32,000 nucleotides of DNA, taken from contig NC_007968.1 of assembly GCF_000013905.1 (NCBI RefSeq), forward strand, positions 9,222-41,221. The letters are read 5' to 3'. This document shows positions 1,596 through 23,008 of the stretch, in pieces. The stretch comes from Psychrobacter cryohalolentis K5 (GTDB lineage Bacteria; Pseudomonadota; Gammaproteobacteria; Pseudomonadales; Moraxellaceae). Numbering within the stretch: position 1 is the stretch's first letter; each line of letters starts with the position of its first letter. The notes beneath the pieces are model-generated. The model worked only from the letters and a program-made list of their open reading frames with translations, searched no databases and was not told the DNA's origin. The translations under genes and the position numbers were made by a program.

Positions 1596-3176
1596 ATGAA
1601 TACCCCTACCTCAGACCCTATTGGCGCAGCATGGCTTATCCGTCATGCAAGCATCGAGCTGGTTTCCCCTTTATATGTCAGCAGCAGTATCGGTGGGCGC
1701 AGACAAACCTATAAAGACGGTGACGTCATTCATAACGCTTATCAGGAAACCGCGCGTCCACTGGACACAATCATTGCGCACTTACAATTTCACATGCGTC
1801 ATGAAGTACTGAGTTTAGAGTTACTGACTCGTCTGTTTGAGCAGATAGGGGCTGATGATGTACAAGCATGGGTAAACGCTGAGCCCACAGGCAGCTATGC
1901 CCGTAGAATGGCTTTCTTGTATGAATGGCTCATGGGTCAGCAGTTAGCAGTACCGAGTAATTTAGGCGGTAACTATGTGGACGCTTTAGATGCTAAGAAG
2001 CAGGTTACTTCAAGCCCTGCGCATGTCATCAAGAATGCTCGTTGGCGTATCAATGACAATCTAGCAGGAACCCGTCATTTCTGTCCGATACTGGTGAAAA
2101 CAGAGGCCTTTACGCAAGCAGCTGCACTCGATATTGCCATGATGGTTGACAAACTTAACGATGAATTTGGGCAAGACTTACTGATGCGTGCCTCCGTATG
2201 GATGACATTACGAGAGAGTAAAGCCAGCTTTACCATAGAAGGTGAAGGGAAAGAGTTAAAACGTATTGAACGTTTCGCCGATGTAATGGCACGGCGCACA
2301 GGCAAGGGCGATATTCCGCTTGATCCTGAGTCGCTAGCAGAGTTGCAACAAGAGATATTGGGTAGTAAAACTATTATTCAGCAGTACGGCATCCGTCAAT
2401 CACCAGTTTTTGTGTCGCATACTCAGGTCAATGGCTTTAAAGAGATTGTGCACTATATCGCGCCACCTGCTGATGACATTGCTGAAAAGCTCAAAGGGTT
2501 ACAGGCATTTATGGAAAAGACCGAGGGGCAATCGGCACTGATACGTAGTGCGGTTGCTTCCTTTGCTTTTGTATATATTCATCCGCTGGCGGATGGCAAT
2601 GGCCGTGTACATCGCTTCTTAATTAATGACGTCCTCAGGCGAGACCAGGTCATTCATGAGCCGATTATCCTACCTATATCACAAGCCATTGCTGAGCATC
2701 CCTCAGACCGTCATGCCTATGATAAAATTTTAGACCGTGTATCCGTGCCACTTATGGAGCAAATCCGTGATCATTACAGCTTTAATAAACAGGTGATTAC
2801 TTACCCTGATGGTATTCGCTCAAACTTAAATTTTGAAAACACTCACCTTATTCAACCGGCATGGCGCTTTATGGACTTAACGCCTCACGTTCAGTACTTA
2901 TCAGGATTGATTGCTCATGTTATTGAAAAAGAGATGCATAACGAGTCGCAGTACCTAAGAAAGCATGACCATGCACGACTGGCGATAAAAGAGATTGTTG
3001 AGATGCCCAACAGCTATGCCGATAGAATCATTCGCAGCATGCTACAAAATAAGGGTGTTAAAAGTAATAAGCTACTGAAGGATTATCCGTTTTTGGCAAA
3101 TAATGAGGTTTGGGACGATATTTTCTCTGTCGTTGTAGAAACTTTTAAAGATGAAGCAGATGGTTTGAATAGTTAG
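1596..3176 (+). CDS. Fic-family protein (AMPylase-type), class II with an internal inhibitory helix
   Basis: Fic motif HPLADGNGRVHR starts at 2580 (HxFx(D/E)GNGRxxR pattern). An upstream (S/T)xxxE(G/N) inhibitory motif, SFTIEG, lies at 2226-2243 in the same polypeptide. Confidence 0.9.
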   Translation: MNTPTSDPIGAAWLIRHASIELVSPLYVSSSIGGRRQTYKDGDVIHNAYQETARPLDTIIAHLQFHMRHEVLSLELLTRLFEQIGADDVQAWVNAEPTGSYARRMAFLYEWLMGQQLAVPSNLGGNYVDALDAKKQVTSSPAHVIKNARWRINDNLAGTRHFCPILVKTEAFTQAAALDIAMMVDKLNDEFGQDLLMRASVWMTLRESKASFTIEGEGKELKRIERFADVMARRTGKGDIPLDPESLAELQQEILGSKTIIQQYGIRQSPVFVSHTQVNGFKEIVHYIAPPADDIAEKLKGLQAFMEKTEGQSALIRSAVASFAFVYIHPLADGNGRVHRFLINDVLRRDQVIHEPIILPISQAIAEHPSDRHAYDKILDRVSVPLMEQIRDHYSFNKQVITYPDGIRSNLNFENTHLIQPAWRFMDLTPHVQYLSGLIAHVIEKEMHNESQYLRKHDHARLAIKEIVEMPNSYADRIIRSMLQNKGVKSNKLLKDYPFLANNEVWDDIFSVVVETFKDEADGLNS

Positions 3177-7742: not shown

Positions 7743-8624
7743 TTAAAGCTTACCTAGTTTCTTATGATTATAATAAGTTCTTCTCGAAATACCTAAGTCT
7801 TCCCAAGGCTTCATAGATTGCTCTGACGTAGCTATAGGCTTACGTTTAGATACCTTACCGCCTTTACTACCCTTAAGTGCCTGCCGATAAATAAACTCAT
7901 TATAGTGATAAGCATCACGCTTCCAACAGTATTTAGCAATGCTTTTTGCAGTAGCCTTGATTTCTGAGTACGGTAACGGCTCTGAAAACATCATATTCAC
8001 GCTTTGAGCGTGCTTAAGTACTGAACTGTACCATTGATCCCAAGTCTTGCCTCGATGCTCTCTAATGGCAGAATAAGCCCAATGGCGAACGGTATCGAAC
8101 AGGGAGCAGTTCCTTCCAAGCCCATATTCTTTCTCGTTAGACGTTAAAGGTCTGAGATCTACGAACTCCGCAAGATAATTTAGCTCATAGGCTTCTTTCG
8201 TCCATACTTCGGTACGCCAATGTTCGTGCAGGGGGTTTTTGGTGATGAAATTGGTATAACCAACGTCTGCGCGACTTGCTCTGACAAGCCCTGCTTGTAT
8301 CTTAGCGAGATAATCTAAGGCTTTACGACTGCCATGCTCACTGGTACAAACAGGCGTTTTTAGCTCATAGACGATATGGGCGTGTCCGTTTGAGGGGTTT
8401 TGGCTTGTCCACCGTGGCGGTGGTAGGTATTCTTCTGCCCATCGCATAGCGCCATGCTCATGATCAATGTCTAAGCAGATAAAATGAGTCATGCAAGGGG
8501 GGTTGTGCTGGATGTACCGCATTTTGACGGCAGTTTGCCTAGGACGAATGACAAGATTACCTAAACCATCGGTGCAATAGGGCTTGTAGGGGAGTGTTTC
8601 GTATATTTCCGGTAGTAATAACAT
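7743..8624 (-). CDS. rep: ColE2/pAL5000-type replication initiator (primase-like Rep, Replicase family)
   Basis: LPYKPYCT, NGHAHIVYEL, YGLGRN, KSIAKY and KPWEDLGISRRTYY align with the ColE2 Rep sequence as I remember it. The ATG at 8624 gives 293 aa, close to the size I recall for ColE2 Rep. The ORF track extends to a GTG at 8699. Confidence 0.85.
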   Translation of the reverse strand: MLLLPEIYETLPYKPYCTDGLGNLVIRPRQTAVKMRYIQHNPPCMTHFICLDIDHEHGAMRWAEEYLPPPRWTSQNPSNGHAHIVYELKTPVCTSEHGSRKALDYLAKIQAGLVRASRADVGYTNFITKNPLHEHWRTEVWTKEAYELNYLAEFVDLRPLTSNEKEYGLGRNCSLFDTVRHWAYSAIREHRGKTWDQWYSSVLKHAQSVNMMFSEPLPYSEIKATAKSIAKYCWKRDAYHYNEFIYRQALKGSKGGKVSKRKPIATSEQSMKPWEDLGISRRTYYNHKKLGKL

Positions 8625-8958: not shown

Positions 8959-9938
8959 ACCCCACTCTCAACTTGAAATAAGCAAATCAAACTGAAGAGG
9001 CGGATTACCAAGTTTTTTGTTGAGTACAAAGCACAGATTGTGTGAAAGAATCTTACGAATCAATCGATGAGACAAATGCCATAAATCTCTTGCTCGTACC
9101 CTTTGTATATTAAATCGTTCTGATAGCTGACCAATGACTGTTTCAACGATACGGCGGGCTTTCATTAGCCGCCTTACCACAGGTTTGGGTCTATCCTCTT
9201 TCATGTTGGCTCTGAGTGGCGTTTGTAAATCCACGCCTTGAGCGTCGTAGTACGATGTCAGACTAGGGCTGATATACCCTTTATCAGCGCCAAGCAGCCC
9301 ATGAATATGAGTGGTGATTTCTGGGGCAACCGCTCTTTCATCAACATTGGCAGGAGCAAAGGTAAAGCCTTTAATCATGCCCGATAAGTTAACAAGCAAA
9401 TGGCCTTCAAAGCCATAGTACCTCTCTTGCTTAGCGGCACAGTAGCTAAAAGCTGCTAAGTCTTGATAATTCTTATGCCGATAAGCGCGTCCATAATGAC
9501 AGACGGGTATCGGAAAGCCATCCATAAAATGAATGTTGTCACGGCCTTCAATTTGACTGACTTTATCTTGTATCTGCTGTTTGACTTGCCACAGATTGGC
9601 GCAGTGCTTTGCGAAGTTAGGGTATGAGCCGATGGCTGGAAACCAGTCTTGCCAATGCTGGGTAAAGTATTGCCAAATTTGTTTTTCTTGATCTAGGTGT
9701 AAAAATTCACCGACCATCTCCATGCAAATAACCTCAGGATCACTTAGCTTTGGCGCGTAACCTGCACTTCGCAAGGGTTTGGTGACGACTATTTTGTAAT
9801 ATTGCTCTACCATTAAATAGATATTGATGATAAATTCGTCTATGGGCATCTCACAACTCCATTGTATTCTTGGTCGAAAACAATAGATTAGTGAGGTGCT
9901 CTTCTTTTTTCAATCACTTTCGAAGTTGAGAGTCGGGT
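8959..9938 (-). mobile_element. IS982-family insertion sequence, intact, with an 8-bp target-site duplication
   Basis: Terminal IRs ACCCCACTCTCAACTTGAAA (8959-) and the reverse complement of TTTCGAAGTTGAGAGTCGGGT (-9938), with 1 mismatch and 1 indel. Direct repeat TAATTACT at 8951-8958 and 9939-9946. Confidence 0.9.
8968..9849 (-). CDS. IS982-family DDE transposase
   Basis: 293-aa uninterrupted ORF filling the element. The N-terminal YYKIVVTKPLRSAGYAPKLSDPEVICMEMVGEFL pattern is typical of IS982 transposases. Confidence 0.85.
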   Translation of the reverse strand: MPIDEFIINIYLMVEQYYKIVVTKPLRSAGYAPKLSDPEVICMEMVGEFLHLDQEKQIWQYFTQHWQDWFPAIGSYPNFAKHCANLWQVKQQIQDKVSQIEGRDNIHFMDGFPIPVCHYGRAYRHKNYQDLAAFSYCAAKQERYYGFEGHLLVNLSGMIKGFTFAPANVDERAVAPEITTHIHGLLGADKGYISPSLTSYYDAQGVDLQTPLRANMKEDRPKPVVRRLMKARRIVETVIGQLSERFNIQRVRARDLWHLSHRLIRKILSHNLCFVLNKKLGNPPLQFDLLISS

Positions 9939-11258: not shown

Positions 11259-11894
11259 ATGAAAGTAATAGCGGTATTAAATCAAAAGGGCGGAAGCGGC
11301 AAAACGACAATCGCTACTCAATTAGCCCGAGGTCTACAGCTGCAAGGGCATAGTGTGTTGTTAGTTGATAGCGACCAACAAGGTAGTGCGCGTGATTGGA
11401 GAGCAGTTGATGAAGATAACCCTGTGCCAGTTATTGGATTAGATAGACCAACTTTGGATAAAGATTTAAAAAACGTATCTGATAAAGAATTTGTAGTTAT
11501 TGACGGTTCTCCGCAAGCAACCACTCTTGCTATATCTGCAATTAAGGCTGCTGATTTTATACTGATACCAGTACAACCAAGTCCTTATGATGTCTGGGCT
11601 ACTAGCGATCTAGTAGATCTAGTTAAACAGCGCATCGAGATGACTGATGGTAAATTGAAGGCCGCTTTTGTGGTATCTAGGGCAATCCAAAATACCAATA
11701 TCGGCAAAGAAGTGGCAACTGTTTTATTAGATTATGGTTTGCCTGTTCTGGACACTCGGATAATGCAGCGTGTGAGTTACCCAAATAGTGCCTCATTAGG
11801 TAAAACGGTATTCGATACAGAGTCAGCTAATAGCAATGCTGTACAAGAAATGACGGCTTTGGTCAATGAAGTTAAAACATTTTTCGATGAATAA
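11259..11894 (+). CDS. parA: ParA partition ATPase (type Ib)
   Basis: Starts [17 protein letters not shown] (deviant Walker A), about 211 aa. The ORF-track start at 11211 would add 16 non-homologous residues that overlap the operator. Confidence 0.92.
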
Positions 11895-11906
11895 TGAGGT
11901 ATAGAC

Positions 11907-12110
11907 ATGAAAGCAGGTAGACCAAGTAGAGACGCCAAAAACACCTTAGATTTATCAGATGTGACTAATGCTCCGAAAAAGACAGTAAGAGTTAACTTCA
12001 ATCTAGATGAAGAAAAGTACATATTGTTAAAACAATATGCACTCAATAACCGTAAGACAGTGACTCAGCTATTAACTGATATGATCGATGAAAAAATAGT
12101 TGAACGATGA
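11907..12110 (+). CDS. Small RHH centromere-binding protein (ParG-like)
   Basis: 67 aa, immediately downstream of parA. The C-terminal VRVNFNLDEEKYILLKQYALNNRKTVTQLLTDMI shows a ribbon-helix-helix pattern. Confidence 0.75.
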   Translation: MKAGRPSRDAKNTLDLSDVTNAPKKTVRVNFNLDEEKYILLKQYALNNRKTVTQLLTDMIDEKIVER

Positions 12111-12367: not shown

Positions 12368-13378
12368 ATGAGCAATTTAATAAAAAGTATTAGAATAAAA
12401 AGATTGTTTGATGAAAAAGACGTTAGTTGGGAACTAAAAAAAATTAATGTCTTAGTTGGTAAGAATGGATTGGGTAAATCTACTATTCTTAGGTTGATAA
12501 ATGCTGCCGTCACTTTAAAACAAGTTGAAGACTTAAATTTATGTGAAGAAGTAAGCGTAGTAATGAAAGATGAAGAAAAATACACTTCGAAAAAAAATAA
12601 TTTAATAGATATTGAGATGTTAAAATTAGTTATAGAGGAGCTATCAAGGTTTGAAAAAAATTCTAGGAAAGATAAAAATTCAGATAGCCATTATGTAAAA
12701 TATAAAAGATTAAGCAATGATGAACTAAAAGAATTAACGACAGATTTGTTCAAAAAAATAAATAAAAATGCAACTAACTATGAAATAGAGGATAATGATA
12801 AGAAATTAAATATCAAAAGAGATAATCAAGTTTTTAAACCTAAAAAAAAGATGCCTGTAGAGTTTATATCTACGATAAATATGAGTGCGAACTCAGTAAA
12901 TAACGTTATTGAGAGTGACGGAAATAAGACAACTTTTTTAGACGTAGAGATTGATAAGGAAGTAGAAAGACTAAATAAGGATCATAGAAACAAAGATGAA
13001 CTACAAGAAAAGTTTATGAGTTCGTTAAACAATTTTTTTGAAGAAACCAACAAAAAAGTAGAGTTTGTAGACGATAAGATAGAAATACTACTAATTAGTG
13101 GAAAGAGAATAGACTATCGCAACTTATCTTCTGGAGAAAGGCAGTTAATATTTATATTCCTAAAAATAATAAATGGCGGCGTTGATAACTCATTGATATT
13201 AATGGATGAACCAGAAATATCATTACATCTTTCATGGCAAGAAAAACTATTAACAGAGATCACAAATGCTAATAGCTCAAGCCAGATGATAATAGTAACT
13301 CATAGCCCAGCTCTAGTTATGGACGGTTGGCTAGACAACTTCATAGACATAAAAACCATAACAGAAGAAGTGTGGTGA
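12368..13378 (+). CDS. ABC/AAA_21-type ATPase (AriA-like)
   Basis: Walker A GKNGLGKST (12458-12484), ABC signature LSSGERQ, Walker B LILMDEPE, H-loop IIVTHSP. Very AT-rich coding sequence. Confidence 0.85.
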   Translation: MSNLIKSIRIKRLFDEKDVSWELKKINVLVGKNGLGKSTILRLINAAVTLKQVEDLNLCEEVSVVMKDEEKYTSKKNNLIDIEMLKLVIEELSRFEKNSRKDKNSDSHYVKYKRLSNDELKELTTDLFKKINKNATNYEIEDNDKKLNIKRDNQVFKPKKKMPVEFISTINMSANSVNNVIESDGNKTTFLDVEIDKEVERLNKDHRNKDELQEKFMSSLNNFFEETNKKVEFVDDKIEILLISGKRIDYRNLSSGERQLIFIFLKIINGGVDNSLILMDEPEISLHLSWQEKLLTEITNANSSSQMIIVTHSPALVMDGWLDNFIDIKTITEEVW

Positions 13379-13383
13379 GCGAC

Positions 13384-14370
13384 ATGTCAGAGTTTCATGA
13401 CTTCTTTACTAGTAAAAATTTTATTGGCGCTTATAACGTTTTTTCATCTGGAGATATTAAAGATAAAAATAAAGGGATTATTTATGTTGAAGATGCCTCT
13501 GATTACTCATTTTGGGAAGGGTTTATTGGCTATCATTACCCAAATGAATATATGTGCCGCCCTTCTTCAAAAGAAGGTAAAACAGTAACTGGCAAGAGGT
13601 TTTTAGAGAAAATATATAAAGATGCTAATGAAAAGATAATAATCGCAGTTGATAGTGACTATGACTACATTGCTTCTAAGGTACAAGAAGACCACATATT
13701 CAATCATAATAAATATGTTATCCATACTCATGGATTTAGTAGAGAGAGTGTCCAGATTGAAAAAGATAGTTTAGATCATTTTTTCAAGCTATGTAGGTTA
13801 ACTATCCCTAACACCGTTAACTTATCAAGCTTCTTAAATGATTTCTCTGAAATAGCTTTTAAAGGACTGGCTAAATATATTGTTATTCTCAATAGAATTG
13901 ATTACAGCAATATATATGATAGCGAATTCAATTCATGTTTCCATCTTCTTGATGAAAACATGGTTGATGAGAACTTACTAATCAGCAAATCCGGTATTGA
14001 AAAAATAGAGAAGAAAATGGACTTATTCTTCGATGATAAATGCATCTACGAAGACGATATAATAAAATCAGAATATTTCTTAAATGATATAGGAATTAAT
14101 AGGGATAATGCTTATAGGTTTATATCAGGTCATGTTCTTTTTGACTTAATCAAAAAAATACATAAAATAAATTTATCTCAGCTAATGAAACACGAGATAA
14201 AGAATATCAATAAGAATGTAACTGGAAATGAAATAAAAGACAGGGTTAATCAAGTAAAGACTCGGTTTAATGACTCCTTTAGCTTTGATACTTACTGTCA
14301 TATGCGTCAAGTAGATCTTGAAGATGAAGTCCATAAGTTCATACTCTCAGCCATTAAAAATATTAAATGA
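13384..14370 (+). CDS. DUF4435/TOPRIM (OLD-type) nuclease-like protein (AriB-like)
   Basis: The ATG at 13384 lies 5 nt after the ATPase stop. TOPRIM-like IIYVED (Glu codon 13489-13491) and AVDSDYD (DxD at 13651-13659), about 54 residues apart. The ATPase + DUF4435 pairing is the PARIS architecture. Confidence 0.7.
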   Translation: MSEFHDFFTSKNFIGAYNVFSSGDIKDKNKGIIYVEDASDYSFWEGFIGYHYPNEYMCRPSSKEGKTVTGKRFLEKIYKDANEKIIIAVDSDYDYIASKVQEDHIFNHNKYVIHTHGFSRESVQIEKDSLDHFFKLCRLTIPNTVNLSSFLNDFSEIAFKGLAKYIVILNRIDYSNIYDSEFNSCFHLLDENMVDENLLISKSGIEKIEKKMDLFFDDKCIYEDDIIKSEYFLNDIGINRDNAYRFISGHVLFDLIKKIHKINLSQLMKHEIKNINKNVTGNEIKDRVNQVKTRFNDSFSFDTYCHMRQVDLEDEVHKFILSAIKNIK

Positions 14371-17637: not shown

Positions 17638-17702
17638 AATTATTTTATTTGTGTAGCTTTATAGAGTATAGTACTTATATTGTTTACTATAGAGAGTATA
17701 AA

Positions 17703-18650
17703 ATGAGTAATAAGCAGTTAATTGCTAAAGACAATAAGTTAATCGGTGCTAGCTACTCTCTTGGTATACCCGAACAGCGTCTTATTTTCTTAGCAATTAT
17801 TGAAGCAAGAGAACAAAAACAATTGATTGATGCTAAAGGTGTTCTGAACATTAGAGCAAAGAGCTATCAAGAACAATTTAAGGTAGAAAAACATACTTCA
17901 TACGATGCATTGAAAAGTGCTACAAGTGGTTTATTTGATGCTCATTTTGAGTATGAAGATATTCATGAAAAAACAGGAAAACAGGCTCGCCATGTCATTA
18001 GATGGGTACAAAAAATAAGCTACATTGATGACGCTGGTATGGTTGAGCTGCAATTTACAGATGCAGTTATTCCGCTAATAACAAGACTTAGCGAGCAATA
18101 CACAGAATATGAGTTAAAACAGGTTAGCGAATTGCAAAGCGAATACTCAATCAGGCTTTATGAGTTAATGATGCAATGGAAGGCAGTTGGTAAAACTAAC
18201 AAGATATCAGTTGACGATCTACGTAGGAAATTAGGTGTTGAGCCCAAGCAATATAAGAAAATGAATAACTTCAAGGCACGAGTTCTAGACCATGCTATTA
18301 ATCAAATAAATGAACATACAGATATTCAAGCTGAGTATGATCAGTATAAAGATGGACGTGCAATTGCAGGCTTTACATTTAAATTTAAAGTGAAGAAAAA
18401 CAAAGTGAAAATTGCTGCCAAAGTTGAAGCTGATAACGTCGACAGGTCTACCATTGAAGGGCTAAACGATAAGCAGTTAGGGCGTATTGCTCGCAATCCT
18501 AGTTTTATAGCAGACTATAATGATTTAGTTAGTTCGACTAGCCCAGCTGGTCAAGATATGAATATGTGGGAATTAGAGATGATTAATCGCCTTAAGAAAG
18601 ACATTTCTCAATTTAAGAAACGTCCAATTAGAGAGTATCTTGAATACTAA
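17703..18650 (+). CDS. rep: Rep_3-family (iteron-binding) replication initiator
   Basis: Starts MSNKQLIAKDNKLIGASYSLGIPEQRLIFLAI, the canonical Rep_3 N-terminus, followed by YSIRLYELMMQW. Located next to the iterons. Confidence 0.9.
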   Translation: MSNKQLIAKDNKLIGASYSLGIPEQRLIFLAIIEAREQKQLIDAKGVLNIRAKSYQEQFKVEKHTSYDALKSATSGLFDAHFEYEDIHEKTGKQARHVIRWVQKISYIDDAGMVELQFTDAVIPLITRLSEQYTEYELKQVSELQSEYSIRLYELMMQWKAVGKTNKISVDDLRRKLGVEPKQYKKMNNFKARVLDHAINQINEHTDIQAEYDQYKDGRAIAGFTFKFKVKKNKVKIAAKVEADNVDRSTIEGLNDKQLGRIARNPSFIADYNDLVSSTSPAGQDMNMWELEMINRLKKDISQFKKRPIREYLEY

Positions 18651-18809
18651 GTCTTAAATGATGAAAAAGTGTATGGTTAAGAGGAAGCTGCAATAATGAG
18701 AGAGCAGCAACGCCAAAAATTGCAAGAGGTAAGAATAGGTAGAACTAACAAGGAAACAGAACTCTAGATTTAATTATTTGGCAACTAAGATCGCTATAAA
18801 GGACCTCTA

Positions 18810-19937
18810 ATGACAGACTTAAATAAAGAAATTGATAAAGCAAGACACAATGTTCGAACAGATAGCTATTCTATGTCTATAGGCGAACTCGCTAGTATGT
18901 ACGAAGATAATGAACTAGAAATACATCCGGCTTTTCAAAGAGTTTTTCGATGGAGTGATGAGCAAAAGAGTAATTTTATAGAATCTATATTCTTAGGTAT
19001 TCCAATCCCTTCTATATTTGTTTCTCAGCGCCAAGATGGCGTTTGGGATTTAGTGGACGGCCTTCAAAGATTATCAACCATTTTCTCTTTTATGAATAAA
19101 CTGAAGGATGAAGAAGGAAGTATTAGAGACCCATTCACTCCTGAGGCAACTAAGTATCTACCATCTCTTAAAGGAAGAAAGTGGGGAACAGAAGATTTAG
19201 ACTCTGCCGACTTACTATCGAACAATCTCAAACTCTTGTTCAAAAGACAAAAGATAGCTGTAAATATTATAGAACGTGAAAGTGACGATGATGCTAAGTT
19301 CGAGCTATTTCAGCGGTTAAACACGGGAGGATCTGCTTTATCTCCACAAGAGGTCAGAAACTGTTTATTGATAATGTTAAACAATCAGGCTTTTGATTTT
19401 ATTCAGGCTTTAACTAAAGATGAATCATTTCAAAAAACAGTCCTTGTTACAGAGGCGAAGGAAGATCAAGCATATTATTATGAACTCGTATTGAGGTTCT
19501 TTATTAACAGACATGCATCTGATGAAATACGATCAAAGCATAGTGATGTACATCCTTATCTTAACAATGAAACAATCCGATTATTTGATATTAACTCAGA
19601 TTTTGAATACAACAAAGAAAGAGAGGTGTTCAAAAATACTTTTGAGCGTATAGCTCTTGCCCTAGGAGATGATGCGTTTAAAAAATACAACCCTCAAAAA
19701 GATAGATATGAGGGGGCTTTTAGCTTACCTGTGTTTGAGGCTATATCTACAGGCATATCGTTCCTAGTAGAAAGCGATGATTATAATGAGGATGCTATAG
19801 TTGTAGTTATAGCAGCTAAGACAAAAGAGCTTATAGATAATAATGATTTTACAAACTCTTATGCTACTCGGATTAGACCTATAGACAGAACTAAGATAAT
19901 GATTGGTATAGGTCGGAGTTTGTTTTGTGAGGATTAG
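18810..19937 (+). CDS. DUF262 (ParB-like/GmrSD N-terminal) domain protein lacking a DUF1524 nuclease half
   Basis: IHPAFQRVFRWSDEQKSNFIESIFLGIPIPSIFV and WDLVDGLQRLSTI (DGLQR at 19056-19070). I see no H-N-H/His-Me pattern in the C-terminal 200 aa. Confidence 0.8.
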   Translation: MTDLNKEIDKARHNVRTDSYSMSIGELASMYEDNELEIHPAFQRVFRWSDEQKSNFIESIFLGIPIPSIFVSQRQDGVWDLVDGLQRLSTIFSFMNKLKDEEGSIRDPFTPEATKYLPSLKGRKWGTEDLDSADLLSNNLKLLFKRQKIAVNIIERESDDDAKFELFQRLNTGGSALSPQEVRNCLLIMLNNQAFDFIQALTKDESFQKTVLVTEAKEDQAYYYELVLRFFINRHASDEIRSKHSDVHPYLNNETIRLFDINSDFEYNKEREVFKNTFERIALALGDDAFKKYNPQKDRYEGAFSLPVFEAISTGISFLVESDDYNEDAIVVVIAAKTKELIDNNDFTNSYATRIRPIDRTKIMIGIGRSLFCED

Positions 19938-20577
19938 AAATCTTGAACAACTGGAAAAATCGATGGTTAGCGACTTAACTTGGCGTAGACGAGAGCTGAC
20001 TACATTGAAGTTCATGATTCAGGAAAATAGCGCTATCCATAAGAAAAATATATTACACAGAGCTGCTATAGCCTTATTGTATTCACATTGGGAAGGACAT
20101 GTTAAACATTGCTCTTTAGTTTATTTGAGTTATCTAAATAGCTTGGGTCTTCACTGTGATCAGATAGCAGATAACTTTATACAACTAAATCTAAGCTCTT
20201 ATTTTGATGTAAATCTTTCAATGAAATCTACAAAGAATCAAAAGGCCATCCATGATTACTTTTCTCGTTTGTCTGATGTTACGTTCAAAGTTGTAGAGAA
20301 TAAAACAATAGACACTAAGTCGAATTTAAACTCTGAGGTTCTTTTAAATATACTCTCGCAATTGGGCCTTCCGAGTAATGAATTTGAGTTGAAGAGTACG
20401 TTGATAGACACAGTTTTGCTAAAAAATAGAAATGCTGTGGTTCATGGAGAGATGTTGAATGCTGATGGCTTGAGAAATACATATAATGAAATAGAAGATG
20501 ATTTATTGTATTTGATCGAAACATTCCATAATCTTGTTAACAGTGCGGCAGCTAATGGTCTCTATCTAAAACAGTAG
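19927..20577 (+). CDS. HEPN-domain protein (RiboL-PSP / MAE_28990-like), predicted RNase
   Basis: GTG start with GGAG 8 nt upstream, overlapping the DUF262 gene by 11 nt. R-x4-H motif RNAVVH at 20428-20445, followed by GE. N-terminal DLTWRRRELTTLK helix. Confidence 0.7.
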   Translation: MRIRNLEQLEKSMVSDLTWRRRELTTLKFMIQENSAIHKKNILHRAAIALLYSHWEGHVKHCSLVYLSYLNSLGLHCDQIADNFIQLNLSSYFDVNLSMKSTKNQKAIHDYFSRLSDVTFKVVENKTIDTKSNLNSEVLLNILSQLGLPSNEFELKSTLIDTVLLKNRNAVVHGEMLNADGLRNTYNEIEDDLLYLIETFHNLVNSAAANGLYLKQ

Positions 20578-20591
20578 CTATCTTTTCAAAT

Positions 20592-21542
20592 CTATGGGGA
20601 GTAAGGACCAAGAAACCTTACTCCATTAAAATGAATGAGATGAGAAGGAGCATCCGCTACCCAAACTTCTGTTTCCCATGCAATTTCACTAAGATAACGA
20701 CCCATTAGAGCTCTATTCGGAAAAGCTGTCACATAAACTAGCCCAGCAGTTGATTCTGAAAACAACTTAGAAAGCTCTTCATATCTTTTTCCGTCAACAG
20801 GTCCATGGCTAGTGACAGACTCAACTAATAACAGCCAGTTTTTTTCAGTGTAGTGCAATACGACGTCAGGCATTTTACCGTGTGAACCTACATCCACATT
20901 CAGTTCTTTCAGTAGCTCTTTGTCAAAATACCCCCACTTTTTCTCTGTGTCACCGGCATAAATCAAGATACTATTTGGTGCAAAACGTTCTGCAAAATCT
21001 TCAATAATATCTTTGATAAGCTCGCTATGAATACCAGGACTCAATGTAATTTCTTTACCATCTGCAATTCTTACAGGAATACGATTTTGCTCTCGCTCTT
21101 TAGCATAACGCTCAACAAGCGATGTACGATCAGCTAAATAGCGTTCTAGGTGGCTGTGCCATGATGTAGTCCCATAAGTGCGAAGCAGGGTCAATACGTG
21201 AGGTTCGATTTGATAAACGGCCTTTGGACTATTGACGGGTCGGTCTGGCTTATCTGGATTATAAAGAGCTATACCTGCATCACAAAACTGATGCATTGTT
21301 TGGCGACGAACTGTTTCCCGTGTGTTAGGAGCATAATCTTTACTGTAATGCTCACGGGCCCAATTCATGATAGGTGTAATTCCCATTAACGGGCTTTTTA
21401 CTTGTGTCCAGCTCTTACCTGGAGAAAGGTCTAGAAGAGCTAATAAAGTTAAGGCTGAGCGTTCATTATATTGTGCAGTAGGTAGACCTAAGCAAGCTAT
21501 AATTTGTAGAGCTGCCTCAATGTGATCATCTTGTGTATTCAT
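20592..21542 (-). CDS. Type II restriction endonuclease, BsuBI/PstI family
   Basis: LGLPTAQYNERSALTLLALLDL...GITPIMNWAREHYSKDYAPNTRETVRRQTMHQF...PDRPVNSPKAVYQIEP matches the BsuBI/PstI N-terminal domain as I recall it. The start overlaps the methylase stop (TAATG). Confidence 0.8.
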   Translation of the reverse strand: MNTQDDHIEAALQIIACLGLPTAQYNERSALTLLALLDLSPGKSWTQVKSPLMGITPIMNWAREHYSKDYAPNTRETVRRQTMHQFCDAGIALYNPDKPDRPVNSPKAVYQIEPHVLTLLRTYGTTSWHSHLERYLADRTSLVERYAKEREQNRIPVRIADGKEITLSPGIHSELIKDIIEDFAERFAPNSILIYAGDTEKKWGYFDKELLKELNVDVGSHGKMPDVVLHYTEKNWLLLVESVTSHGPVDGKRYEELSKLFSESTAGLVYVTAFPNRALMGRYLSEIAWETEVWVADAPSHLIHFNGVRFLGPYSP

Positions 21543-23008
21543 TAAATTAAATCTCTAAATTGAGCATCAATGCTCTCTTGTGTGATATTTTTTTGTTCTA
21601 AAGCCCACTCACCAAGCTTAAATAAATTTTCACGGCTAGGGTACTTCATCTGCTTAAGATCTGTTGCATTGACCTGAGTATGACCACTAAACCGCCTAAA
21701 ATGCTCATCTACTGCGGTAGTGTTCAGGTATACCATAAGTCCACTTGCTAATGCCTCAGGCAAGCCGTTTTTATTGTCGTGGAATACGTTTAAGTGGTTT
21801 TCAAACCCCAGCATCGTGTATTCGCTAAAATCAGTAGGGTTTATCAAGTTTGCAACCATACGACGTTTTTCCTCCTTCGACGAAAAACGTTTCACTACAC
21901 AGTAAAATCCGTTAGGGTAAAGCCATTTCTCTGTATCGTTATTGGCTACGATTGCATTAGATTTTTTAAAGTTAGGTATAGGCCAAGTGGTTTTATATGC
22001 CTTTAAGTGGGCTGGATAAATCAATGGCACAGCCCCTTCTTCAGGCCTATCTCGTAAATACTCTTTCAATCGGAAATCAACTACTGGGCCAGTTGATAGC
22101 TTTATACCAATGTCAGCCATTGAATAACGCACAGCAGATGATAATTCGATGGCACTTTTCTCGGTCGTAGTCTGCACGTGAATAAACCGTTCTGGATCAT
22201 CTGGAAATACTATGCGCTCAAAAGGAATTTCACAGTTAGTTAGGTCAGAAAAACTATCGTCAGTAGAGGTTGAGATAGTAACAGGTCCTTGCTTTCCATC
22301 ACGTTCTAAGCAAATAATGATATTCTCTTGTAGTACCTGATCATCGCTAAAAGCTTTGCTGCGCGATTCAAACAAATGCATCTGATGTATCGCTGCCCGT
22401 TCAAGAATGAAGTCGCGGAAAGGGCGATAATAAGGGCCATTGCAGAAACTGCGTGGAATAATAGCTACCATTTGGCCACCTGGAGCCATCTCTCCCAGCG
22501 CTAATGCTATAAAAGCGGAATATAAATTAACTGTTTCAATACCAACACTACTTAAAGCTAATCGGTGCGCTGATTTACTATTGATTTTTTTATAAGGTGG
22601 ATTCAGAATTACGTGAGTGTAACCTTGATCCTGCAGACCTTTGTCTGTTGCCAGTTTGATGTAATCGTCAGAGAAAATACGAGTTGTCACATGATCGTAT
22701 GAGTTTAGATGCTGACTAAGATAGTTCGTCAGTTTCTTATCGATTTCGAAAGCGGTTACATCAACATCATTAAACCCAAACCCATTGGCCTTCCAACGAT
22801 CAAGGAACGCGCAGGTTAAAGTACCTATTCCTGCGCCTGCGTCTAATAAGCGACAGGTTTTAATATTGCTAGGTGGAAAAAGAGATGCCATAAATCGAGC
22901 TACACTTGAAGGCGTCATAAACTGCCCCAGCTCAGCTTTATGTTTTTGCGTGGTACGACGCGCTAATTTAAGGCGCACACTATCTGCAGTGTCTAACTGT
23001 TGGAGCAT
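21542..23008 (-). CDS. N6-adenine DNA methyltransferase (Eco57I/BsuBI-PstI methylase type)
   Basis: GQFMTPSSVARFMA, motif I LDAGAGIGTL, motif IV NPPY (22603-22592). Confidence 0.88.
   Translation of the reverse strand: MLQQLDTADSVRLKLARRTTQKHKAELGQFMTPSSVARFMASLFPPSNIKTCRLLDAGAGIGTLTCAFLDRWKANGFGFNDVDVTAFEIDKKLTNYLSQHLNSYDHVTTRIFSDDYIKLATDKGLQDQGYTHVILNPPYKKINSKSAHRLALSSVGIETVNLYSAFIALALGEMAPGGQMVAIIPRSFCNGPYYRPFRDFILERAAIHQMHLFESRSKAFSDDQVLQENIIICLERDGKQGPVTISTSTDDSFSDLTNCEIPFERIVFPDDPERFIHVQTTTEKSAIELSSAVRYSMADIGIKLSTGPVVDFRLKEYLRDRPEEGAVPLIYPAHLKAYKTTWPIPNFKKSNAIVANNDTEKWLYPNGFYCVVKRFSSKEEKRRMVANLINPTDFSEYTMLGFENHLNVFHDNKNGLPEALASGLMVYLNTTAVDEHFRRFSGHTQVNATDLKQMKYPSRENLFKLGEWALEQKNITQESIDAQFRDLI

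What the first reader, a model, noticed from the sequence alone, without database searches (positions are those of the whole stretch)
18810..20577. Overlapping DUF262 + HEPN gene pair: candidate uncharacterised defence / abortive-infection module
Seen in the sequence:
- A 375-aa ORF carries the DUF262 N-terminal signature (IHPAFQRVFRW..., DGLQR at 19056-19070). It lacks the DUF1524/His-Me nuclease half that completes GmrSD/BrxU/SspE-type enzymes.
- Its last 11 nt overlap a GTG-initiated 216-aa ORF with GGAG 8 nt upstream.
- That second ORF has an R-x4-H HEPN motif (RNAVVH, 20428-20445) and an N-terminal LTWRRRELTTLK helix like RiboL-PSP / MAE_28990-type HEPN proteins.

Established knowledge: DUF262 domains act as nucleotide-dependent sensor/NTPase modules in type IV restriction and in BREX- and Ssp-associated enzymes. 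HEPN domains are RNases in Abi systems, Cas13 and TA toxins. Comparative genomics has noted a ParB/DUF262-HEPN association, but I know of no experimental characterisation or named system.

Inference: this is a split architecture in which a DNA/NTP sensor controls an RNase effector instead of a DNase.

Context supports a defence role. The pair lies between a replicon and a PstI-like R-M system (convergent stops only 14 bp apart), on a plasmid that also carries a PARIS-like pair.
Basis: partly seen in the sequence, partly recalled or inferred. Interest (0 to 1): 0.85.

Follow-up and report, generated by a model that had tools for sequence, protein, structure and literature searches.

The report
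DUF262 sensor plus HEPN RNase pair
This plasmid gene pair is real and intact, but it is a divergent copy of an already named and tested two-gene phage-defence type (PD-T4-2: a DNA/nucleotide-sensing protein plus an RNA-cutting enzyme), so it is fairly ordinary, although nobody yet knows how such pairs work.

Summary
Gene A (18810-19937) is a DUF262/ParB-type protein (Pfam E=1e-27) with no DUF1524 nuclease half. Gene B (19927-20577, GTG start, 11-nt overlap) is a RiboL-PSP/MAE_28990-type HEPN protein (E=1e-31) with an invariant RN-x3-HG motif.

The window is a Psychrobacter cryohalolentis plasmid that also carries PARIS and a PstI-like R-M system.

The claim that no named or tested system exists is wrong. 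PD-T4-2 (Vassallo 2022) is a validated anti-T4 system described as "DUF262, HEPN", with the same two Pfam HEPN families. The ParB-HEPN operon link was published in 2013.

The pair is a tightly co-inherited cassette:
- 80 of 80 related genome loci keep A directly upstream of B, mostly with 4- or 1-nt overlaps.
- Divergence of A and B is correlated (r=0.92).
- No third gene is conserved.

A divergent prophage clade sits in E. coli P2 hotspots and is nearly always flanked by a DNA methyltransferase.

PADLOC's PD-T4-2_B model misses this clade, and gene A scores higher on Menshen NsnA than on PD-T4-2_A.

Verdict: new member of a known kind. The mechanism (DNA/NTP sensor gating an RNase) is inferred, not shown.

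The parts
18810..19937 (+). Gene A: 375-aa ParB/DUF262 NTPase-type protein with a C-terminal helical domain and no nuclease domain
   Evidence: Pfam GmrSD_N E=1.2e-27. PADLOC NsnA 1.1e-61 over residues 13-352 and PD-T4-2_A 5.2e-31 over residues 23-288. The AF2 model (pLDDT 83.6) has BrxU, SspE and then ParB CTPases as best PDB matches.
18897..19370 (+). DUF262 domain of A (residues 30-187) with motif I QRxxxW (18936-18953), motif II DGLQR (19056-19070) and motif III FQRLN (19308-19322)
   Evidence: All three motifs are invariant or nearly so in 29 homologues and in 76 A/B pairs. The motif definitions come from PMC12065111.
19377..19934 (+). C-terminal all-helical domain of A (about residues 190-375), equivalent to the NsnA-C / SspE-M / GmrSD-M 'ParBDB' DNA-binding domain
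   Evidence: The NsnA and PD-T4-2_A profiles extend through this region, and SspE profiles match residues 143-254 to the SspE middle region. The model is helical from residue 179 to 372. The best structural matches are BrxU and SspE. The ParBDB concept is from PMC12065111.
19915..19937 (+). Coupling junction: GGAG (19915-19918), GTG start of B (19927), 11-nt overlap with the end of A
   Evidence: Read directly from the sequence. In 80 related loci the A stop overlaps the B start by 4 nt (44 loci), 1 nt (14) or 11 nt (3).
19927..20577 (+). Gene B: 216-aa stand-alone HEPN protein of the RiboL-PSP/MAE_28990 family, the predicted RNase effector
   Evidence: Pfam E=1e-31 and 1.5e-25. The family holds 2,888 clusters at 50% identity, all 210-235 aa. 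The AF2 model is all-alpha with pLDDT 91.7.
20428..20445 (+). HEPN catalytic motif R168-N-A-V-V-H173 (followed by G174)
   Evidence: R168, H173 and G174 are invariant in 76 of 76 pairs and N169 in 75 of 76. The motif aligns with RNxLAHG of the prophage clade.
19981..20328 (+). Other family-defining invariant motifs of B: W19-R20..E23 (19981-19995), S53-H-W-E-G57 (20083-20097), S132-N-L134 (20320-20328)
   Evidence: Invariant columns in alignment A1 and in 76 pairs.
20592..23008 (-). Neighbour, not shown to be part of the system: convergent PstI/BsuBI-type REase (20592-21542) and Eco57I-family N6 methyltransferase (21542-23008)
   Evidence: PADLOC REase_II 3.9e-153 and MTase_II 6.8e-224. The same arrangement occurs in a second Psychrobacter contig, L002. 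GC is 0.40 here against 0.35 for A-B. The four closest relatives outside Psychrobacter have an orphan N6 MTase in this position.

Best explanation
This is a PD-T4-2-type two-gene anti-phage module carried on a defence-rich plasmid.

Shown:
- Gene A is a ParB/DUF262 NTPase-fold protein with an SspE/BrxU-like helical DNA-binding domain and no nuclease domain.
- Gene B is a stand-alone RiboL-PSP/MAE_28990 HEPN protein with an intact R-x4-H site.
- The two genes are translationally coupled and are inherited as one unit across many phyla and in prophage defence hotspots.

Inferred, by analogy with SspE, GmrSD and BrxU (DUF262 senses DNA and, through NTP binding or hydrolysis, switches on an attached effector) and with HEPN RNases such as PrrC, ApeA and DARNA:
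1. A and B form a complex in which the HEPN active site is held off.
2. A binds invading phage DNA, possibly recognising its modification state, and undergoes an NTP-dependent change.
3. That change releases or activates the HEPN dimer.
4. HEPN then cuts tRNA or mRNA and stops translation, so the phage fails, most likely at the cost of the infected cell.
For: - Domain identities.
- Catalytic motifs of both proteins are essentially invariant in 76 pairs.
- Strict synteny: 80 of 80 genome loci have an A homologue directly upstream of B on the same strand. 58 of 80 have 4- or 1-nt overlaps.
- Co-divergence of A and B: r=0.92, Mantel 0 of 999.
- No conserved third gene: 157 Pfam families among 139 flanking genes.
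- Same architecture and same Pfam families as the validated PD-T4-2 (PMC9519451).
- A homologous clade (hhalign 95.9%, E=6e-9) sits next to the portal gene in P2-like prophages of E. coli. That position is the P2 defence hotspot described by Vassallo et al..
- The plasmid also carries PARIS, a type II R-M system and a PDC-S24 Fic protein.
- Structural matches of A to BrxU, SspE and ParB CTPases.
Against: - There is no experiment on this clade.
- PADLOC's PD-T4-2_B model does not match B or any of 22 family members. It gives only E=0.01 for one prophage-clade member.
- A scores higher on Menshen NsnA than on PD-T4-2_A.
- I could not obtain the PD-T4-2 sequences for a direct comparison.
- Most chromosomal relatives lie among housekeeping genes, not in recognisable defence islands.
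- Complex formation, the trigger and the RNA target are all inferred.
Confidence: 0.7

Rival explanations
1. PrrC-style guard. A, rather than being an activating sensor, is itself the first-line DNA-targeting component (ParB-fold proteins were originally read as nucleases) and keeps the HEPN RNase silent. A phage factor that inhibits or removes A unleashes the RNase as a back-up suicide response.
For: Anantharaman et al. 2013 proposed exactly this logic for HEPN domains linked to R-M-type DNases, including ParB. Tight translational coupling and co-divergence fit an inhibitor-toxin complex.
Against: A has no recognisable nuclease domain. Its relatives SspE, BrxU and GmrSD use DUF262 as an NTPase sensor, with cleavage done by DUF1524. 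No anti-restriction trigger is known.
Confidence: 0.12
2. Toxin-antitoxin / plasmid-addiction module. B is a HEPN toxin and A its protein antitoxin. The main role on this plasmid is post-segregational killing next to the replicon, not phage defence.
For: The pair lies directly after repM (17649-18650) on a plasmid. The gene order (neutraliser first), the overlap and the co-inheritance are TA-like. Many chromosomal copies lie outside defence islands.
Against: A 375-aa protein with three invariant NTPase motifs and a DNA-binding domain is not a typical antitoxin. The same architecture gave phage defence in E. coli (PD-T4-2), and a sister clade occupies prophage defence hotspots. TA and abortive infection are not mutually exclusive.
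Confidence: 0.1
3. Methylation-linked, R-M-like system. The pair works with a neighbouring DNA methyltransferase (here the PstI-type MTase) that marks self DNA. A reads the mark, or its absence, and fires the RNase.
For: In the prophage clade 70 of 76 loci have a C5 MTase directly adjacent, 60 of them convergent downstream. The five closest relatives of this window's pair also have an MTase beside B: L002 has the same R-M system, and L003, L004, L010 and L013 have an orphan N6 MTase overlapping the 3' end of B. A Terrisporobacter phage has an Eco57I-type MTase right after B. [quoted passage not shown] PD-lambda-5 is a ParB-HEPN fusion plus an MTase.
Against: 74 of 80 genome loci have no MTase within 3 kb. 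PD-T4-2 was cloned as two genes and works in K-12. Here the MTase belongs to a complete, compositionally distinct type II R-M system on the opposite strand. The viral loci are redundant (27 B clusters at 50% identity).
Confidence: 0.12
4. Plasmid maintenance ParB. A is a partition or nucleoid-associated ParB homologue serving the adjacent replicon, and B is an unrelated passenger.
For: A has the ParB fold and matches ParB CTPase structures. It lies next to repM.
Against: The plasmid already has ParA/ParG. A lacks the ParB HTH and matches BrxU and SspE better. The A-B linkage is universal on chromosomes and prophages unrelated to this replicon.
Confidence: 0.02

Closest known systems
PD-T4-2 (Vassallo et al. 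2022, E. coli ECOR65)
   Same: A two-gene system with a DUF262-only protein and no DUF1524, plus a small HEPN protein whose best Pfam matches are HEPN_RiboL-PSP and HEPN_MAE_28990. The PADLOC PD-T4-2_A model matches gene A at E=5e-31 over about 250 residues.
   Different: PD-T4-2 is more compact: 1,540 bp for both ORFs against 1,768 bp here, with the R-x4-H at about residue 120 against 168. The PD-T4-2_B model does not detect B. Direct sequence comparison was not possible. Host, replicon and phage range differ, and activity here is untested.
Menshen NsnA (NsnABC; Millman 2022; Li et al. 2025)
   Same: Gene A matches the NsnA profile nearly end to end (E=1e-61). It shares the ParB-DUF262 plus ParBDB two-domain layout and all three motifs.
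   Different: There is no adjacent NsnB ABC ATPase and no NsnC inPIN-effector. The effector is a HEPN protein directly coupled to A, and the A/B pairs co-diverge instead of shuffling.
GmrSD / BrxU / SspE type IV restriction-like enzymes
   Same: The DUF262 NTPase domain and the following helical DNA-binding domain are shared. The best structural matches are BrxU (7p9k) and SspE (6jiv).
   Different: These are single polypeptides with a DUF1524 His-Me DNase or nickase. Here that domain is absent and an RNase-type protein is encoded separately.
PD-lambda-5 and the 'ParB + HEPN + DNA methylase' operons of Anantharaman et al. 2013
   Same: They combine a ParB-fold domain, a HEPN domain and a DNA methyltransferase. 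This is the pattern seen in the prophage clade and in the nearest relatives of this pair.
   Different: PD-lambda-5A is a single ParB-HEPN fusion with a Dam-type MTase. No PADLOC PD-lambda-5 hit was obtained here. In this window the MTase is part of a complete PstI-like R-M system.
PrrC-EcoprrI and other HEPN abortive-infection RNases (ApeA, DARNA/PD-T7-3, AbiD/F)
   Same: A latent HEPN RNase is kept silent until infection, and tRNA cleavage is the documented outcome.
   Different: Those systems use different partners and activators: a type I R-M complex, SSB-ssDNA, or an RNA antitoxin. B belongs to a different HEPN family, and no PADLOC hit was obtained to any of them.

Membership tests
PD-T4-2 | Two adjacent co-directional genes: a DUF262-only protein followed by a small HEPN protein | tested here: met
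   PD-T4-2 is described as 'DUF262, HEPN' with two CDS.
PD-T4-2 | Gene A matches the PD-T4-2_A profile | tested here: met
   PDLC04027 E=5.2e-31, residues 23-288 against profile positions 39-289 of 363. The NsnA profile scores higher.
PD-T4-2 | Gene B matches the PD-T4-2_B profile | tested here: not met
   No hit for B or for any of 22 family members at E<=10. The profile exists (PDLC04030) and gives only E=0.01 for one prophage-clade protein. Both B and PD-T4-2B do have HEPN_RiboL-PSP and HEPN_MAE_28990 as their top Pfam matches.
PD-T4-2 | Protects against phage (T4 in E. coli) | not testable with these tools
   This needs cloning and a phage challenge.
DUF262 / ParB NTPase (GmrSD_N) | Pfam PF03235 above the gathering score, with motifs QRxxxW, DGxQR and FxxxN | tested here: met
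   97.7 bits against a cutoff of 33.2. The motifs are invariant.
GmrSD / BrxU / SspE | C-terminal DUF1524 His-Me finger nuclease in the same protein | tested here: not met
   Pfam finds no such domain. The protein ends at residue 375 after an all-helical domain.
Menshen (NsnABC) | NsnA-like gene followed by an NsnB ABC ATPase and an NsnC effector | tested here: not met
   The gene after A is the HEPN gene. The only ABC ATPase in the window is AriA of a PARIS pair, about 4.4 kb upstream of gene A. There is no conserved third gene in 80 loci.
HEPN superfamily | R-x4-6-H motif in a family-specific HMM match | tested here: met
   PF18735 at 110.8 bits and PF18737 at 91.1 bits. R168 and H173 are invariant.
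HEPN superfamily | Four-helix up-down HEPN core seen by structure comparison | tested here: inconclusive
HEPN-MNT toxin-antitoxin | Minimal nucleotidyltransferase partner | tested here: not met
   The partner is a DUF262 protein.

The most novel reading that the evidence does not exclude
This clade and its prophage sister clade would together form a large family that current defence-finder models miss. In that family a ParB/DUF262 sensor reads the methylation state of DNA set by a linked methyltransferase (here possibly the PstI-type enzyme) and answers with RNA cleavage instead of DNA cleavage. It would be an 'R-M system whose restriction arm is an abortive RNase'.
Probability: 0.15. Interest if true: 0.6.

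Novelty: new member of a known kind. Interest (0 to 1): 0.3.

Why it matters
The pair belongs to a very widespread cassette. Relatives of B form 2,888 clusters at 50% identity, and at least 587 loci in species-representative genomes encode one. A sister clade sits in P2 prophage hotspots.

The only tested representative, PD-T4-2, has no known mechanism. The PADLOC PD-T4-2_B model misses this clade, so such loci are probably under-counted in defence censuses.

Working out how a DUF262 sensor gates a HEPN RNase, and whether the frequent methyltransferase neighbour matters, would fill a real gap. The existence and likely role of the pair are not new.

Tried and rejected
- **PD-T4-2 sequence.** I tried to get the sequence itself (ECOR65 QOYX01000002, RCO39066.1) for a direct alignment. 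Routes tried: paper supplements, tblastn in plasmids and phages, an IMG/VR scan and E. coli genomes. I found only related, larger P2-hotspot trios, not PD-T4-2.
- **Sequence search of the PDB** with both family profiles found nothing.
- **A conserved third gene.** None was found in the genome clade.
- **Menshen membership.** Rejected, because there is no NsnB or NsnC.
- **RNA elements.** Rfam found none in the window.
- **Promoter and terminator scan.** There is no convincing promoter in the 159-bp gap upstream of A and no terminator after B.
- **NCBIfam.** No model matches either protein.
Full report
**What is there**

The window is 100% identical over the queried stretch (18700-20600) to plasmid unnamed1 (NZ_CP022042.2, 41,221 bp) of Psychrobacter cryohalolentis FDAARGOS_308, from permafrost. 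Window position equals record position minus 7776.

- A matches Pfam GmrSD_N/DUF262 at E=1.2e-27 on residues 30-187 and nothing else.
- B matches HEPN_RiboL-PSP (E=1e-31) and HEPN_MAE_28990 (E=1.5e-25) over nearly its full length.
- The stated motif coordinates are exact: DGLQR at 19056-19070, RNAVVH at 20428-20445, GGAG 8 nt before the GTG, an 11-nt overlap, and convergent stops 14 bp apart.

RefSeq starts B at the ATG at 19963 (204 aa). Homologues of 214-218 aa align from residue 1 of the GTG form, and the closest relative uses the same GTG, GGAG and overlap. The longer form is therefore preferred.

**Anatomy of A**

In 29 homologues (48-81% identity) the three DUF262 motifs are invariant: QRxxxW (Q43, R44, W48), DGxQR (D83, G84, Q86, R87) and FxxxN (F167, N171). 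They stay invariant or nearly so in 76 A/B pairs from diverse phyla.

The PADLOC NsnA (Menshen) profile covers residues 13-352 (E=1.1e-61) and PD-T4-2_A covers 23-288 (E=5.2e-31). SspE profiles touch residues 143-254.

The AlphaFold2 model has pLDDT 83.6. It shows an alpha/beta N-terminal domain and an all-helical C-terminal half. Its best PDB matches are BrxU (7p9k, E=5.5e-4) and SspE (6jiv), followed by ParB CTPases.

This is the 'ParB-DUF262 + ParBDB' layout that Li et al. 2025 define for NsnA, SspE, GmrSD and DndB (PMC12065111). There is no DUF1524.

**Anatomy of B**

Invariant residues in 22 homologues are W19, R20, E23, Y52, H54-W-E-G57, S132-N-L134, G147, R168-N169 and H173-G174. All are retained in 76 pairs.

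A profile search of 1.84 billion representative proteins found 2,888 relatives (2,147 at E<=1e-10). The 150 best hits listed are nearly all stand-alone proteins of 210-235 aa. No solved structure is detectable by sequence for either family.

**Linkage of A and B**

A scan of species-representative genomes found at least 587 loci encoding a B relative. In the best 80, every one has an A homologue immediately upstream on the same strand.

- The A stop overlaps the B start by 4 nt in 44 loci, 1 nt in 14 and 11 nt in 3.
- Hosts span Pseudomonadota, Chloroflexota, Cyanobacteriota, Acidobacteriota, Bacillota, Bacteroidota, Planctomycetota and Saccharimonadales.
- Pairwise identities of A and of B are strongly correlated (r=0.92; Mantel 0 of 999), so the two genes travel and diverge together.
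- Flanking genes are heterogeneous. The largest neighbour cluster is in 11 of 80 loci, and 157 Pfam families occur among 139 flanking genes, many of them housekeeping.

The unit is therefore an autonomous two-gene cassette. One caveat applies: the 80 loci are the best B matches, not a random sample.

**A sister clade in prophages**

tblastn of A found a P2-like coliphage (P2_4B2 gp44 and gp43) and a Terrisporobacter temperate phage with the same pair.

An IMG/VR scan gave 211 viral contigs. In the best 80, the gene after A forms one BLAST-connected family of about 220-260 aa carrying RNxLAH. That family is homologous to B by profile-profile comparison (95.9%, E=6e-9), with the YSHWEG, SNL and RNxxxHG motifs aligned.

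In complete E. coli genomes these copies lie right after the P2 portal gene. That is the prophage defence hotspot described by Vassallo et al.. RefSeq labels them 'DUF262 | MAE_28990/MAE_18760 family HEPN-like nuclease | DNA cytosine methyltransferase'.

**Methyltransferase neighbour**

In the prophage clade 70 of 76 loci have a C5 DNA methyltransferase directly adjacent, 60 of them convergent downstream.

In the genome clade only 6 of 80 have an MTase nearby. Five of those six are the closest relatives of this window's pair. L002 has the same PstI-like R-M system. L003, L004, L010 and L013 have an orphan ~420-aa N6 MTase whose 3' end abuts or overlaps that of B.

The Terrisporobacter phage has an Eco57I-type MTase directly after B.

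[quoted passage not shown] It also echoes PD-lambda-5, a ParB-HEPN fusion plus an MTase that Vassallo et al. call a compacted RM+Abi system.

In the window the MTase belongs to a complete type II system on the opposite strand with a different GC content (0.40 against 0.35). A functional link here is possible but unproven.

**What is already known**

- PD-T4-2 (ECOR65) is listed as 'DUF262, HEPN'. It has two CDS. HHpred gives DUF262 for A and HEPN_RiboL-PSP/HEPN_MAE_28990 for B. It was validated against T4 on a low-copy plasmid in MG1655 and by deletion in the native strain (PMC9519451).
- Reviews list it among DUF262 systems that lack DUF1524 and call it largely uncharacterised (PMC10952713 and PMC12065111).
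- No paper in the searchable library reports its mechanism.

**Membership**

The architecture, the gene content and the PD-T4-2_A profile match are all met. The PD-T4-2_B profile fails for this clade and for the prophage clade. A fits the NsnA profile better than the PD-T4-2_A profile.

PD-T4-2 is also more compact (1,540 bp in total). A PADLOC v2.0.0-style call that needs both PD-T4-2 profiles would therefore probably not be made at this locus.

I file it as a new, divergent member of the known DUF262+HEPN (PD-T4-2-type) kind. It is not Menshen, because NsnB and NsnC are absent. It is not a GmrSD-type enzyme, because DUF1524 is absent.

**Mechanism**

Shown:
- NTPase and HEPN catalytic motifs are intact and conserved.
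- Translational coupling and co-divergence are conserved.
- The pair is carried on mobile elements and sits in a defence hotspot context.

Inferred: A senses invading DNA and, through NTP binding or hydrolysis, releases or activates a HEPN dimer that cleaves RNA and causes abortive infection.

Rivals:
- a PrrC-like guard, in which loss or inhibition of A unleashes B;
- a TA/addiction role next to the replicon;
- a methylation-linked R-M-like mode;
- a ParB maintenance role, which is very unlikely.

**Verdict**

The feature is real and probably functional, but it is a member of a published kind. Interest is modest. It rests on the unknown mechanism, on the size of a family that current models miss, and on the methyltransferase linkage.

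Noticed in passing
window 19927-19963: RefSeq (WP_041753797.1) starts the HEPN gene at the ATG at 19963 (204 aa). Homologue N-termini and the closest relative support the GTG at 19927 (216 aa), so the annotation is probably 12 residues short.
   Followed up: yes
L084-L163 (IMG/VR); L164 2423-5319; L165 2423-5319: A prophage-borne sister clade of the pair is almost always (70 of 76 loci) flanked by a C5 cytosine DNA methyltransferase, usually convergent and abutting the HEPN gene. In E. coli it lies next to the P2 portal gene.
   Followed up: partly
L003 3032-4324, L004 6637-7896, L010 6638-7894, L013 2374-3636: The four closest relatives of the pair outside Psychrobacter each have an orphan ~420-aa N6 DNA methyltransferase convergent with the HEPN gene; in L004, L010 and L013 its 3' end overlaps that of the HEPN gene, in L003 it lies 73 nt downstream. 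No restriction enzyme is visible beside it.
   Followed up: partly
window 12368-14370: An AAA ATPase plus DUF4435 pair matches PADLOC AriA (2e-39) and AriB (1.7e-23), so it is a PARIS system.
   Followed up: yes
window 1596-3176: A 526-aa Fic-family protein matches the PADLOC candidate defence family PDC-S24 nearly end to end (E=6e-176).
   Followed up: no
window 7743-8624 (-) and 17649-18650 (+): The plasmid carries two replication-initiator genes: a 'replication initiation protein' and RepM. An IS982 transposase (about 8968-9849) and ParA/ParG (about 11259-12110) lie between them, which suggests a cointegrate or mosaic replicon.
   Followed up: no
one search hits H9-H53 (E. coli, Salmonella and Klebsiella conjugative plasmids): A different DUF262 protein (31% identical to residues 11-185 of A) is present on more than 500 enterobacterial, mostly conjugative, plasmids. 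Its partner genes were not examined.
   Followed up: no
one search hits H80-H101: Lytic phages encode DUF262-like pieces. RB49-like T-even coliphages have a stretch about 34% identical to residues 3-101 of A, split over two annotated ORFs. Bacillus phage FADO, a phage that Menshen defends against, has a DUF262 protein. These could be decoys or counter-defence proteins.
   Followed up: no
L140 2414-4396: One viral contig has a broken copy of gene A (truncated at 339 aa, with a 230-nt gap before the HEPN gene) while the HEPN gene and the C5 MTase remain intact.
   Followed up: no
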